From NCBI GenBank assembly GCA_035911475.1, contig JAMHVM010000125.1, positions 18,504 to 82,503 on the forward strand: DNA of 64,000 nucleotides, written 5' to 3'. The notes beneath the pieces are model-generated. The model was not told where the DNA came from, ran no database searches, and worked only from the letters and a program-made list of their open reading frames with translations. This DNA is from Lysobacterales bacterium. GTDB lineage: Bacteria; Pseudomonadota; Gammaproteobacteria; Xanthomonadales; UBA2363. This document shows positions 57,861 to 60,934 of this stretch, piece after piece (within the stretch, counting starts at the first letter, position 1; every line of letters starts with the position of its first letter). Both the position numbers and the translations under genes were made by a program.

Positions 57861-58026
57861 TCAGAACGCCGGGACGGCGGCGTCCTTGTAGCGCTGCTGG
57901 ATGAATTCGCGCATGGGCGGACTGGTCAGCGCGGCGATCAGCTTGCGCACGCGCTCGTCGTCGCGGATTTCGGGCAGGCCGACCAGGATGTTCACGTAGG
58001 GCGAGTCCTTGCCTTCGATGGCGAGC
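57861..58026 (-). repeat. Orphan duplicate of the metQ 3' end (direct repeat copy A)
   Basis: 166 bp with 10 mismatches to 60128..60293; encodes LAIEGKDSPYVNILVGLPEIRDDERVRKLIAALTSPPMREFIQQRYKDAAVPAF-stop without a start. Confidence 0.95.
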
Positions 58027-58287
58027 TTGTCGCAGGCCGGGCCGCGGCGGCTGCCGAGCGCGCGTCTGGACACGCAGTGGCCCGGGACGTGACGTGTCGT
58101 GATGTCCACCTGCTTCGGGCGCGCTTCGGCGATCCCGCGCAGTGCCCGGGTGGCTTCCGGCAAGCCATCAGCGAGTCCTTCAGGACGTTTCCGGTGTGCC
58201 TGTAATCACCGGGCAGAAACCGAGTATGAGGAGGCGATGACTACCCGGGCAGGGATGTCGCTAATACCGTCGGCAACTCAAGAGACG

Positions 58288-60024
58288 ATGATGAACACCC
58301 TGAAGGCAAGACTGAACGACAACGACAGCGACAACGATCACTGCAGGCTTGCCGATGCTGTCCGGTTGCCGGGCAAGCCCACTCTGATCGCCGTACTGCT
58401 GGCGATGTTGCTGCTGTCTGTTCCGGCGCTGTCCAGCGAGGGCTTCCATCCGCGTGATCAACCGTACGGCGAGGAAGAGCAGCAGGCCCTGGTCGCGCTC
58501 ACCGATGAGCCCTACACCTTCGATCCGGGATTCGCCGGAGGGCGCTGGCGGGTCGATACCTTTGCCCCAACCCTCTTTCCGGCCCATCCTGGTGTCAACA
58601 TGCGTGGTCGCAAACTGGTGCGGCTGAGCAATGGCGATGTCGTCGTCGCTGGCCTGGTGCCGGCGTGGAACCAGGCGGCTAGCGGTACCGACGTGTGGAA
58701 CATCGGCTTGGTCAAGGTTACGCCCAGCGGCAGCTTCCGGCCCTGGGGTAGCAGCTCCGCCTACCATTTTCTGGAGGAATCGGCACTTGGACTTGTGAAC
58801 TTCAGTTATGTGGTCTACCCCAATCTGGCCACGCCCTTCTACCGAAACATCCGGGACATCAAGGTTCACAACAACCGGATATACGTGCTGGTCGACTACC
58901 GGCACAGCGCTACCGACTGGGACGCTGTCGTGGTTGCCTTCGAGCCCGATGGGACACCCATCGGCGAGGTTTTCGCGACGAGAAATCCGGCCATTCCCGA
59001 AGTCGGCGGCGCCATGGCCTTTCATAATCGAGGCCAGGGATTGGGTGCGCGTCTGTACGTCGTTGGCACCAGCACTTTTCCGAGTGGGCGAATCGAGGGA
59101 TTCTTGACACGCTTGAATGTCAACAGCGACGGCAGTCTCACGCCTACGGTCACGGGTTTGGGGCCTGGCGGCAATCTGCCGATCATCGGTCTGGAGCCGC
59201 CGGCCAACCTGTGCGCAGGAGTCGAGCGTTGCAATGCCCAGTTCAACAGCCTGGCGCTCAGTACAAGAGCCGTCGGGCTGGGCAACCCGATAAAGCGCAT
59301 CTACGCGGGCGGTGCGCTTCAGTATCACGGAGCAGACTGGGATTTTCTTGCAGTTGGCACCGACGAGCGTGGTGTTCCGGACGCCTCGTTCGGCGTCAAT
59401 GGGTACCGGGTTGTTCCGTTCAATCGGGGCGGGAACAATCAGGAGGTGGCGCGCACCATCGTCACACGCAGGGCCGGGCCAGCACTGGAATGGGATGAGG
59501 TTTTTCTCGCGGGCGAGGTCTCGCGCAGCAACAACGCCAGTGTGAACCACAACCGTGGTGTTGGCGTGACCAAGCTGGCCGACAATGGTGGCGTGGTGGC
59601 CACCTTCGGAAACAATGGGCGGGTGGTCTATGGCGGGTGCAGCGACGAAGACAGCGCTTGCAACGCCAATCCAGGCGCCAATGCGCTGCTGCCTACCAAT
59701 GAGGTCTGGTCGATGGTCGTCAGCGGCCAACGCGTGGCCATCGCGGGTGCGGAGTACTACACACCGCGGCTTTGTTTCACCCCGCCGTGCAGCCGGCGTG
59801 GCGTGGCCACCTTCTCGGTTGTTCGTGCCAACGGTGGCGCGCTTACCGAGTTCACCCATCTGCCGTTGAGAATGAATGGTGAGGTTGTCGACAGCTATGC
59901 CTGGGGTGTTGTTGCCGACGGCCCGGACAGCTTCTTTGTTGCCGGCGCCGGCGGCTCTCCGCGCCGTTTCATCACCACCCGGGTGAGTGGCGACCGCATC
60001 TTCGGGCACGGTTTCAACCCCTGA
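58288..60024 (+). CDS. Secreted beta-propeller-like protein (divergent delta-60-like blades) with DRIFGHGFNP tail
   Basis: Hydrophobic signal LIAVLLAMLLLSVPALS-SE; FDPGFAGG, DASFGVNG, ATFGNNG, GDVVVAG motifs; atypical codon usage; lies between the two metQ 3' copies. Confidence 0.82.
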   Translation: MMNTLKARLNDNDSDNDHCRLADAVRLPGKPTLIAVLLAMLLLSVPALSSEGFHPRDQPYGEEEQQALVALTDEPYTFDPGFAGGRWRVDTFAPTLFPAHPGVNMRGRKLVRLSNGDVVVAGLVPAWNQAASGTDVWNIGLVKVTPSGSFRPWGSSSAYHFLEESALGLVNFSYVVYPNLATPFYRNIRDIKVHNNRIYVLVDYRHSATDWDAVVVAFEPDGTPIGEVFATRNPAIPEVGGAMAFHNRGQGLGARLYVVGTSTFPSGRIEGFLTRLNVNSDGSLTPTVTGLGPGGNLPIIGLEPPANLCAGVERCNAQFNSLALSTRAVGLGNPIKRIYAGGALQYHGADWDFLAVGTDERGVPDASFGVNGYRVVPFNRGGNNQEVARTIVTRRAGPALEWDEVFLAGEVSRSNNASVNHNRGVGVTKLADNGGVVATFGNNGRVVYGGCSDEDSACNANPGANALLPTNEVWSMVVSGQRVAIAGAEYYTPRLCFTPPCSRRGVATFSVVRANGGALTEFTHLPLRMNGEVVDSYAWGVVADGPDSFFVAGAGGSPRRFITTRVSGDRIFGHGFNP

Positions 60025-60127
60025 CCCACGGTGTCTGCGTCAGGTCCACGTCGCGGCCACAAGCATTCTGCGACGGTGCCCGCAGAGACTGCCCTTTTTT
60101 TCGTGCTTCTTGCTTGACAGGGTGCGG

Positions 60128-60934
60128 TCAGAACGCGGGGACGACGGCGTCCTTGTAGCGCTGCTGGATGAATTCGCGTACTTGCGGACTGGTCAGGGCG
60201 GCGATGAGCTTGCGCACGCGCTCGTCGTCGCGGATTTCGGGCAGGCCGACCAGGAAGTTCACGTAGGGCGAGTCCTTGCCTTCGATGGCCAGCGCATCGC
60301 GCGCGGGGTCGAGGCCAGCGTCTAGCGCGTAGTTGGTGTTGATCAGGGCCAGGTCGACCTGATCGAGCACGCGCGGCAGCATGGCCGAGTCTAGCTCACG
60401 GAATCTGAGATTCTTCGGATTGGCGACGATGTCGCGCAGGGTCGCCAGCGCGTTGTCGGGATCGTTGAGCTGGATCACCCCCGAACGATGCAGCAGGATC
60501 AGCGCGCGGCTGTTGTTGCTGGGGTCGTTGGGGATCACGACATCGGCGCCGTCGGGCACCTCGGCCAGCGTGGCGAAGCGGCGCGAGTAGGCGCCGAACG
60601 GTTCGATGTGGATGCCGGCCAGTGTGGTCAAAGTGGTGCCGCGGTCGCGGTTGTAGGCGTCGAGGTATGGCTCGGTCTGGAAGTAGTTGACGTCGATCCG
60701 CTTCTGCACGACCTGGTCGTTGGGCTGCACGTAGTCGTTGAACACGCGCACGTCCAGTTGCAGGCCTTGTTCGGCCAACAGCGGCTTGACCACTTCCAGG
60801 ATCTCGGCATGCGGCACGGCGGTGGCGGCAATGCTCAGCCGGTTGTTGTCACCAGCGCCGCCGCGGTCACCGCCGCAGGCCGCCAGCGTCGCCAGCAGGA
60901 TGAAGATGTAGAGCAGGCGGCCTTTGAGTTTCAT
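60128..60934 (-). CDS. metQ: Methionine ABC transporter substrate-binding lipoprotein
   Basis: Lipobox LAA-C; PHAEILE, FNDYVQPN, NYFQTEPYL, PNDPSN..RAL, INTNYA, SPYVN. Confidence 0.95.
   Translation of the reverse strand: MKLKGRLLYIFILLATLAACGGDRGGAGDNNRLSIAATAVPHAEILEVVKPLLAEQGLQLDVRVFNDYVQPNDQVVQKRIDVNYFQTEPYLDAYNRDRGTTLTTLAGIHIEPFGAYSRRFATLAEVPDGADVVIPNDPSNNSRALILLHRSGVIQLNDPDNALATLRDIVANPKNLRFRELDSAMLPRVLDQVDLALINTNYALDAGLDPARDALAIEGKDSPYVNFLVGLPEIRDDERVRKLIAALTSPQVREFIQQRYKDAVVPAF

What the first reader, a model, noticed from the sequence alone, without database searches (positions are those of the whole stretch)
57861..60293. Duplicated metQ 3' end flanking a single cargo gene: integration scar in a protein-coding gene without an integrase
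Seen: 57861..58026 and 60128..60293 are 166-bp direct repeats (10 mismatches, about 94%), both ending at the metQ stop codon. The full metQ uses one copy; the other is an orphan. Between them lie about 2.1 kb with one opposite-strand, compositionally atypical gene. Established: integrative elements that insert in a gene often carry a replacement 3' end. Inference: a cassette entered via metQ 3'-end homology, restoring the gene with a slightly different allele. The repeat is long for an att core and no recombinase is present, suggesting homology-driven cassette capture at a conserved anchor gene; the cassette could also excise by recombination.
Basis: partly seen in the sequence, partly recalled or inferred. 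Interest (0 to 1): 0.66.

Follow-up and report, generated by a model that had tools for sequence, protein, structure and literature searches.

The report
Gene-end duplication flanking one inserted gene
The last 166 bases of the methionine-uptake gene metQ occur twice, on either side of a single gene for a secreted beta-propeller protein; this looks like the scar of a small DNA circle that inserted into the gene's end, an event of a known kind that here has no recombinase gene left.

Summary
57861-58026 and 60128-60293 are direct repeats: 166 nt, 10 mismatches, 94.0%. Both end exactly at the metQ stop codon, and there is no third copy in the genome. Logan contigs from two other sequencing runs match both outer junctions at 100%.

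New details:
- Identity drops sharply at about 58023-58027. The next ~36 nt are only about 60% identical and resemble no known metQ.
- The orphan copy carries the derived amino-acid changes. The copy inside metQ carries derived synonymous changes.
- This matches e14 in icd of E. coli K-12, which I measured: 165 nt, 92.7%.
- The insert has no recombinase in any frame, and contig C125 (214 kb) has no tyrosine recombinase.
- The cargo is a beta-propeller protein. Its family usually sits beside ECF-sigma/Ser-Thr-kinase pairs like the adjacent one, so it is not a random passenger.
- No close relative exists to show an empty site. None of 160 metQ loci shows a duplicated end.

Best reading (about 0.55): a Campbell-type integration scar, most likely a decayed integrative element of the cis-mobilizable (CIME) type. 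RecA-driven capture, local rearrangement and assembly error remain rivals. It is a new member of a known kind, of modest interest.

The parts
60128..60934 (-). Intact metQ (MetQ/NlpA methionine-binding lipoprotein, 268 aa), last gene of metN-metI-metQ
   Evidence: Pfam PF03180 E 5.7e-89 over the whole profile. NCBIfam MetQ subfamily models match below their cut-offs. 78% identical to the genus orthologues and 86% to Luteimonas huabeiensis.
60128..60293 (-). Repeat copy inside the functional gene (attL-like): last 54 codons plus stop
   Evidence: Keeps the residues conserved in 158 relatives (F, QV, V). Carries derived synonymous states at 3-5 sites.
57861..58026 (-). Orphan repeat copy (attR-like), 94.0% identical to 60128-60293
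   Evidence: Derived amino-acid states F>I, QV>PM and V>A. Pfam NlpA positions 178-236, E 5e-10.
58027..58062 (-). Degenerate metQ-like extension of the orphan (x'), about 60% identical; marks the identity step and likely crossover or junction zone
   Evidence: In-register identity 0.61 against a null of 0.30, p about 2e-4. At most 66% identical to any of 158 relatives' metQ, whereas the same stretch of the full gene is 74-86% identical to them. No homology further upstream.
58063..58236 (+). Upstream region of the cargo gene (promoter not identified)
   Evidence: No sigma-70-like or GGAAC..CGT ECF-like match. GC3 is 0.82 in the orphan's frame over 58063-58163, n=33 codons, unexplained.
58237..60024 (+). 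Cargo: 595-aa secreted or membrane-anchored beta-propeller protein, ending in ..DRIFGHGFNP. The start is uncertain; a further in-frame ATG lies at about 58288.
   Evidence: No Pfam or NCBIfam family. AlphaFold2 pLDDT 73.6, pTM 0.77, all-beta from residue about 100. Best PDB match is the CylK propeller 7ron, E 7.9e-12. Only about 30% homologues exist, all in Xanthomonadales-like genomes.
60029..60101 (+). Long hairpin followed by CCC-T7: probable intrinsic terminator of the cargo gene, lying between the converging cargo and metQ
   Evidence: RNA fold of 60025-60127 and the sequence itself. Not picked up by the simple terminator scan. z-score only -0.8.
57729..57860 (-). Spacer between the orphan's stop codon and the kinase start
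   Evidence: Sequence. No similarity to the DNA after the full copy's stop or to the DNA downstream of metQ in relatives.
54783..57728 (-). Hanks-type Ser/Thr kinase with TM and TPR region, flanking gene on the orphan side
   Evidence: Pfam Pkinase E 8.4e-41, TPR_12. One of about 36-44 paralogues in the genome.
54147..54680 (+). ECF sigma factor (PF07638 type) converging on the kinase
   Evidence: Precomputed Pfam hit on the identical Logan contig. 64% identical to a sigma factor next to a kinase and a cargo homologue in G007.
60975..62659 (-). metI (60975-61661) and metN (61658-62659), the rest of the methionine ABC transporter operon
   Evidence: tblastn to relatives at 85-90% and 69-71%. 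BPD_transp_1 on metI.

Best explanation
This is the scar of a Campbell-type (single-crossover) insertion. A small circular DNA carried the beta-propeller gene, its promoter and terminator, and a partial copy of the metQ 3' end. It recombined with the chromosomal metQ inside the last about 166 nt.

The result has two parts. The first is metQ body plus one 3' end (still a working gene), followed by the terminator and the cargo gene. The second is a degenerate metQ-like stub plus the other 3' end (the orphan), followed by the old downstream DNA: spacer and kinase.

The most likely version is that the incoming DNA was, or derived from, an integrative element of the e14/phage-21-in-icd kind. Such an element stores a replacement gene end in its attachment site. 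Here the crossover zone lies at about 58023-58040 / 60290-60307. The element's integrase has been lost or acted in trans, so what remains is a recombinase-less remnant flanked by attL and attR, a cis-mobilizable element (CIME) in the terms of Guedon et al. 2017. On this reading the full gene's 3' end came with the element, and the orphan is the displaced native end, now decaying.

Shown: the repeat, its exact limits, the mosaic identity profile, the direction of the substitutions, the absence of recombinase genes, and the nature of the cargo.

Inferred: the circular intermediate, which copy is native, the former integrase, and the possibility that RecA recombination between the repeats deletes the cargo and leaves a chimeric but intact metQ.
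For: 1. Architecture: direct repeats of the gene's last 54 codons plus stop, one in the intact gene and one orphan, 2.1 kb apart.
2. The repeat ends exactly at the stop codon on one side. That is expected if similarity is kept only by selection on coding sequence or stems from alleles with different downstream DNA. It is not expected for a random local duplication.
3. There is a sharp step from 94-100% to about 60% identity at about 58025. The about 36-nt stub next to the cargo is metQ-like but matches no functional metQ (at most 66%), while that stretch is the best-conserved part of the gene in relatives (74-86%). This fits a P-arm that is never part of the expressed gene.
4. Polarised with 27 outgroups, the orphan has the derived nonsynonymous states (F>I, V>M, V>A). 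The full copy has the derived synonymous states at 3-5 sites. This is the icd/icdC pattern of a selected element-borne end and a decaying displaced end.
5. Yardstick measured here: e14 in K-12 gives 165 nt, 92.7%, 12 mismatches, with an abrupt start of homology (PMC13626634).
6. The insert is a self-contained unit with its own terminator-like hairpin plus T7. It is mildly atypical in GC, GC3 and tetranucleotides.
7. Recombinase-less remnants flanked by att sites are a described class (PMC5704250).
8. The genome has 18 tyrosine recombinases that could act in trans.
9. Independent Logan contigs agree with both outer junctions.
Against: - There is no integrase, excisionase or pseudogene remnant in any frame of the insert. 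No tyrosine recombinase (PF00589) lies on the 214-kb contig. A decay that removes everything but one intact gene and both att sites is neat.
- No intact relative of such an element, no second metQ fragment and no cargo homologue is found at any of 160 related metQ loci. None is found on viral contigs or plasmids.
- The cargo family is a regular partner of ECF-sigma/kinase pairs. Its position beside such a pair would be a coincidence of about 10% if it came in alone.
- The substitution-polarity argument rests on about 10 sites. The test against a local duplication gives only p about 0.04-0.14, and gene conversion between the copies could blur it.
- No empty site, circle or alternative cargo has been seen.
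Confidence: 0.55

Rival explanations
1. Recombinase-free capture. DNA from a related strain was taken up and circularised, carrying the cargo plus the end of that strain's metQ. It then integrated by RecA-mediated single crossover within the 166-nt homology. No site-specific enzyme was ever involved.
For: No recombinase in or near the insert. Identical runs of 49, 34 and 33 nt are enough for RecA-dependent exchange (the minimal length is from general knowledge). The cargo family is confined to Xanthomonadales-like genomes, so the donor was a relative. Both repeat copies share lineage-specific residues (GLPEIRDDERVRKLIAALTSP) not seen in other genera. This scan has noted the same layout without recombinases in other genomes (unchecked AI notes).
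Against: A fragment cut from a functional donor metQ should keep the highly conserved stretch just upstream of the repeat. Instead 58027-58062 is degenerate: 57-61% to its own metQ and at most 66% to any metQ. The model needs an unexplained circularisation step. No donor arrangement (cargo next to metQ) is seen in any relative.
Confidence: 0.2
2. Local rearrangement of native DNA. Sigma factor, kinase and cargo were already neighbours of metQ. A copy of the metQ end was placed between kinase and cargo by tandem duplication plus deletion, or by template switching. Partial gene conversion has since kept the copies similar.
For: Cargo-family genes lie within a few kb of an ECF sigma factor and a Hanks kinase in own contig C188, in G007, G037, G005 and G001, and in two metagenome or MAG contigs. 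The same kinase<- ->cargo divergent layout occurs in G037. No mobile-element genes are present. The composition of the insert is only mildly atypical, and other family members also have low GC3.
Against: It needs at least two events, one of which ends exactly at the stop codon. The degenerate stub and the sharp identity step are not expected from a copy of the resident gene. The full copy's excess of derived synonymous changes is unexpected (p about 0.04-0.14). No other such structure exists in this genome.
Confidence: 0.17
3. Assembly artefact. Two strain variants of the metQ end, or an empty site plus a 2267-bp circle, were joined wrongly in this metagenome-assembled genome.
For: The genome is a 199-contig bin with 4.35% contamination. 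At k=31 the Logan graph breaks inside the repeat and cannot by itself exclude the alternative pairing of 'empty site plus 2267-bp circle'.
Against: L180 shows in one unitig a metQ-like stub upstream of the cargo and a metQ end downstream of it. L181 shows the orphan-type end joined to the kinase spacer. All are 100% identical to the window across two runs. Mismatches are never more than 49 nt apart, so ordinary reads phase the copies.
Confidence: 0.05

Closest known systems
e14 / phage 21 integration into icd of Escherichia coli K-12 (icd plus the icdC C-terminal pseudogene)
   Same: A protein-coding gene is kept intact because the inserted DNA supplies a replacement 3' end, and the displaced end remains as an orphan direct repeat. 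Size and identity are almost the same: 165 nt at 92.7% there and 166 nt at 94.0% here. Homology starts abruptly at the 5' edge in both. Recombination between the copies yields a chimeric but functional gene in E. coli (PMC13626634).
   Different: e14 is 15.2 kb and carries intE/xisE. Here the insert is 2.1 kb with one non-phage gene and no recombinase. In icd/icdC most differences are synonymous (9 synonymous, 2 nonsynonymous codons). Here 4 of 7 changed codons are nonsynonymous and the orphan looks decayed. The target gene, metQ, is different.
Cis-mobilizable elements (CIMEs): decayed ICEs/IMEs that retain attL and attR but have lost integration and transfer genes (Guedon et al. 2017, PMC5704250)
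   Same: [quoted passage not shown] Such remnants are described as common next to gene 3' ends.
   Different: CIMEs are recognised by relatedness to intact elements at the same site, and none is known for metQ. The examples named in the passage read are from streptococci. No accretion partner is present here.
Homology-facilitated illegitimate recombination / additive (Campbell-like) integration of circularised DNA after natural transformation
   Same: It needs no element-encoded enzyme. A short homologous anchor in a conserved gene brings in foreign DNA, and additive integration of a circle gives direct repeats of the anchor.
   Different: The classical process replaces recipient DNA rather than duplicating it. 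The degenerate stub next to the cargo is not what a fresh donor fragment would carry. Competence of this uncultured organism is unknown. This comparison rests on my general knowledge, not on a paper read here.
ECF43-type sigma factor / Hanks kinase pairs (EcfK-PknS of Xanthomonas citri; PMC13147305)
   Same: The flanking sigma factor and TM-TPR kinase are of this kind, and the cargo family co-occurs with such pairs.
   Different: This concerns the function of the neighbourhood, not the duplication. I found no described beta-propeller partner, and I did not read that paper in full.

Membership tests
Integrative element that targets a protein gene's 3' end and restores it (e14/phage 21 type) | Direct repeats made of the target gene's 3' end, one completing the gene and one orphan | tested here: met
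Integrative element that targets a protein gene's 3' end and restores it (e14/phage 21 type) | Tyrosine or serine recombinase gene inside the element, next to an att site | tested here: not met
   No family hit for the cargo or for any ORF of 60 aa or more in six frames of the insert. No PF00589 match on contig C125.
Integrative element that targets a protein gene's 3' end and restores it (e14/phage 21 type) | Abrupt start of homology at the crossover side, with the element-borne end diverged mainly at synonymous sites | tested here: inconclusive
   The step at about 58025 is clear. The full copy has 3-5 derived synonymous states, but there are only about 10 informative sites.
Integrative element that targets a protein gene's 3' end and restores it (e14/phage 21 type) | Excision to a circle and an empty site (attP/attB) | not testable with these tools
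Logan k=31 contigs cannot decide.
CIME (cis-mobilizable element) | attL and attR retained, integration and transfer genes absent | tested here: met
   Definition from PMC5704250.
CIME (cis-mobilizable element) | Descent from an ICE/IME: related intact elements, or other insertions, at the same target in other genomes | tested here: not met
   160 metQ loci from genomes and metagenomes were examined. None has a second metQ fragment, the cargo or the kinase within 10 kb. No relative is closer than 86% amino-acid identity, so the test is weak.
RecA-driven additive integration / HFIR | A homologous anchor long enough for RecA and no site-specific recombinase | tested here: met
   Identical runs of 49, 34 and 33 nt. 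No recombinase.
RecA-driven additive integration / HFIR | Donor arrangement (cargo beside metQ) exists in relatives, and the anchor is a piece of a functional donor gene | tested here: not met
   No relative has the cargo near metQ. The stub 58027-58062 is not functional-metQ-like.
Local tandem duplication | Arbitrary end points, copies initially identical over their whole length, native intervening DNA | tested here: inconclusive
   Against: the end point is exactly at the stop codon and there is an identity step. For: the cargo is of the kind that normally accompanies the neighbouring kinase and sigma factor.

The most novel reading that the evidence does not exclude
The 2.27-kb unit (cargo plus one metQ end) is a recombinase-free, homology-armed single-gene cassette. 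It carries a selected copy of a conserved gene's terminus as a targeting arm. It enters by host RecA after DNA uptake and can loop out again as a circle. In this way it would shuffle beta-propeller partner genes between ECF-sigma/kinase signalling modules in Xanthomonadales-like bacteria.
Probability: 0.12. Interest if true: 0.6.

Novelty: new member of a known kind. Interest (0 to 1): 0.3.

Why it matters
If the reading is right, metQ joins the list of protein-coding genes whose 3' end serves as a landing site that the incoming DNA repairs. The locus would also be a compact, recombinase-less example of how a single accessory gene can be added next to a signalling module without harming a housekeeping operon. 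It is a usable test case for a wider question raised repeatedly in this scan: are such integrase-less 'duplicated gene end' cassettes decayed site-specific elements, or products of plain homologous recombination? The degenerate stub next to the repeat is a sequence criterion that can be applied elsewhere to tell the two apart. On its own, without population data, this is an ordinary genomic scar.

Tried and rejected
- **Read-level checks.** The look-up of sequencing runs and read laying with the run found through Logan were both closed. Coverage, circles and collapsed junctions were therefore not tested.
- **Empty site or other cargos in relatives.** I searched the genus (8 species), metagenome contigs and GTDB genomes (160 loci analysed). 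No close relative exists (best 86% amino-acid identity), no second metQ fragment was found, and synteny is absent on both sides. Exact-protein look-ups for metQ and the orphan ORF found nothing.
- **Third, decayed metQ end (tandem accretion).** None was found by tblastn or sensitive blastn over the genome.
- **Longer, frameshifted homology upstream of the orphan.** The local alignment score was below the shuffled mean.
- **Conservation of the DNA after either stop codon with relatives' metQ downstream DNA.** None.
- **Other gene-end duplications in this genome.** A genome-wide self-BLAST found only paralogue and repeat-protein signals.
- **Cargo as a self-mobilising enzyme.** Rejected: it is a signal/TM-bearing beta-propeller with no nuclease or recombinase fold.
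- **Cargo on phages or plasmids.** None.
- **ECF-type promoter motif upstream of cargo, sigma factor or kinase.** None with the GGAAC..CGT pattern.
- **Divergent-paralogue remnant homogenised by gene conversion.** Considered unlikely, because about 60% identity would not support conversion and the genome has a single metQ.
- **Unusable or crude analyses.** A tblastx comparison produced only noise and was not used. The crude survey of genes downstream of metQ shows variability across the order, but its ORF picking was too rough to rely on.
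Full report
**1. Observation**

The repeat finder reports one family at a spacing of 2267 nt and the alignment shows its limits. Over 57861-58026 versus 60128-60293 there are 10 mismatches, which is 94.0% identity. Unrelated in-register stretches of this window are about 30% identical.

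Both copies begin on the + strand with TCA, the complement of the metQ stop codon. On the far side of the stop, similarity is not significant.

The gene map on the minus strand is:
- metN 61658-62659
- metI 60975-61661
- metQ 60128-60934
- orphan end 57861-58062
- Ser/Thr kinase 54783-57728

On the + strand lie the cargo gene (about 58237-60024) and an ECF sigma factor (54147-54680). The genome has one metQ and only these two copies of its end.

**2. Is the assembly real?**

The window is part of a 214-kb contig of a 199-contig bin (95.6% complete, 4.35% contamination). Exact-protein look-ups did bring in Logan contigs from sister runs:
- L180 (SRR18360467) equals window 57993-60174.
- L181 (SRR18360466) equals window 44783-57907.
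- L195 covers metI and metQ up to about 60260.

All three are 100% identical to the window. They end where the two copies share 31-mers. They therefore confirm each outer junction but cannot by themselves exclude the alternative pairing of an empty site plus a 2267-bp circle. Mismatches are at most 49 nt apart, so normal reads and larger k values phase the copies. I rate an artefact at about 5%.

**3. Fine structure of the repeat**

*Codon differences.* The core is the last 54 codons plus the stop. Three codons differ synonymously and four nonsynonymously. At every amino-acid difference the full gene has the residue conserved in 158 relatives (F, QV, V). The orphan has I, PM and A.

*Direction of change.* I polarised the changes with 27 outgroup sequences. 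The orphan is derived at the nonsynonymous sites. The full copy is derived at three to five synonymous sites. Both copies have therefore changed since they split. The orphan changed in the manner of a pseudogene, and the full copy in the manner of a selected coding sequence. The ratio of changes (about 5 to 4.5) differs from the 3.7 to 1 expected if a local copy simply decayed, but only at p about 0.04-0.14.

*The identity step.* Just 5' of the core, identity falls abruptly. 58027-58062 is 61% identical in register (p about 2e-4), and tblastn still aligns it (MetQ residues 203-268). This stub is at most 66% identical to any metQ. The corresponding stretch of the full gene is the best-conserved part of the region, at 74-86% to relatives. 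Nothing further upstream is homologous.

*What follows.* The orphan is a mosaic: a degenerate metQ-like stub joined to a nearly identical end. Two things do not fit a plain local copy or a fresh piece of a functional donor gene. One is this mosaic. The other is that the repeat stops exactly at the stop codon.

**4. The insert**

The 2065 nt between the repeats hold one gene, a possible promoter region and a long hairpin followed by CCC-T7.

The protein has no Pfam or NCBIfam family. With an 11-sequence alignment AlphaFold2 gives pLDDT 73.6 and pTM 0.77. The model has a poorly modelled N-terminal region of about 90 residues that includes a hydrophobic segment, followed by an all-beta body. The best solved match is the beta-propeller of CylK (7ron, E 7.9e-12).

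No alternative frame shows a recombinase. The genome has 18 tyrosine recombinases, none on this contig.

Composition is only mildly unusual:
- GC 62.0% against 65.6% for the genome (6.7th percentile)
- GC3 0.73 against 0.81-0.87 in the neighbours
- tetranucleotide distance at the 90th percentile

Homologues are about 30-39% identical and restricted to Xanthomonadales-like genomes. None is on viral contigs or plasmids.

**5. A complication: the cargo matches its neighbours**

Cargo-family genes lie beside an ECF sigma factor (PF07638) and a Hanks kinase with TPRs in many places:
- own contig C188, where the order is cargo-sigma-kinase in one direction
- G007, G037, G005 and G001
- a JGI contig with the order sigma-cargo-kinase
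- a Xanthomonadales MAG

No other neighbour is shared. With about 44 kinases in 4.7 Mb, a random gene lies within 5 kb of one about 10% of the time. The cargo is therefore the kind of gene that normally accompanies the sigma/kinase pair next door. Either that adjacency is a coincidence or the result of selection after insertion, or the three genes were already together and the metQ end was copied in between. This keeps a local-rearrangement rival alive at about 0.17.

**6. Relatives**

The genus has eight species representatives. Only two carry this metNIQ operon (78% amino-acid identity), and neither has the kinase or the cargo downstream.

Scans of metagenome contigs and of one genome per species returned 160 metQ loci, the best being Luteimonas huabeiensis at 86%. 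None has a second metQ fragment, the cargo, the kinase or the sigma factor within 10 kb.

There is therefore no empty site, no alternative cargo and no sign that metQ is a recurrent landing site. There is also no relative close enough to make this a strong negative.

**7. Mechanism**

The one-step event that yields exactly this layout is a single crossover between the chromosomal metQ end and a circle carrying [stub + metQ end + terminator + cargo + promoter].

Four features fit an attachment site that stores a replacement gene end:
- the degenerate stub on the cargo side
- the abrupt identity step
- the stop-codon limit
- the synonymous divergence of the expressed copy

In such a site only the part 3' of the crossover is ever expressed and selected.

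I measured the textbook case for comparison. In E. coli K-12 the last 165 nt of icd and the icdC pseudogene at the far end of e14 are 92.7% identical, with 12 mismatches (9 synonymous and 2 nonsynonymous codons). The homology there also starts abruptly (see also PMC13626634).

Remnants that keep attL and attR but have lost their recombinase are a described class, the CIMEs (PMC5704250).

I put 0.55 on a Campbell-type scar, most likely of this decayed-element kind. I put 0.20 on the same topology produced purely by RecA on taken-up DNA.

Recombination between the repeats should delete the cargo and leave a chimeric metQ, as happens for icd. That is an inference, not an observation.

**8. Novelty and score**

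The kind is known: gene-end targeting with a replacement end, and recombinase-less remnants. The target (metQ), the tiny one-gene content and the beta-propeller cargo are new instances. Earlier notes of this scan describe many similar 'duplicated gene end without integrase' loci. Those are unchecked AI notes and I use them only as context.

Interest is 0.3. The boldest reading not excluded is a true recombinase-free, homology-armed cassette, at about 0.12.

Noticed in passing
window 54147-60024; own genome C188:28058-31457; L191, L192, L193, L194, L197, L199: A beta-propeller protein family with no Pfam model, ending in ..DRIF..GF.., recurs next to ECF sigma factors (PF07638) and Hanks-type TM-TPR kinases. 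In some loci the three form one operon (sigma-cargo-kinase). It looks like a conserved third partner of ECF43-like sigma/kinase modules.
   Followed up: partly
whole genome G000 and genus relatives: There is a large expansion of Hanks-type Ser/Thr kinases with TPR tails: 36-44 copies in the own genome and 7-38 in genus relatives. About 28 ECF sigma factor genes are detectable by tblastn with the local sigma factor.
   Followed up: no
window 59980-60024 versus 45590-50757: The cargo's C-terminal tail (GDRIFGHGFNP) resembles the ..LFADGFE tails of the two delta-60/DUF5122 propeller proteins in the same window. This may be a shared sorting or recognition motif.
   Followed up: no
own genome contig C152 (6725 bp): The contig starts and ends with a 304-nt direct repeat at 96.7% identity (1-304 and 6422-6725). 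It could be a small circular element assembled with an overlap, or a strain-variant join.
   Followed up: no
window 58063-58163, minus strand, orphan's reading frame: GC3 is 0.82 over 33 codons in the frame of the orphan metQ end, against 0.58-0.73 in most other frames. The orphan thus sits at the end of a 100-aa open frame (57861-58163) with coding-like periodicity but no family match.
   Followed up: partly
window 60128-62659; Only 3 of 8 genomes of the genus carry this metNIQ operon. The closest MetQ in the collections is from Luteimonas huabeiensis (86%), closer than the same-genus orthologues (78%). This hints at patchy inheritance or transfer of the operon itself.
   Followed up: no
window 54147-57728: Here the ECF sigma factor and the kinase converge tail to tail. 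In most related modules they are co-directional or divergent, so this locus has probably undergone other rearrangements.
   Followed up: no
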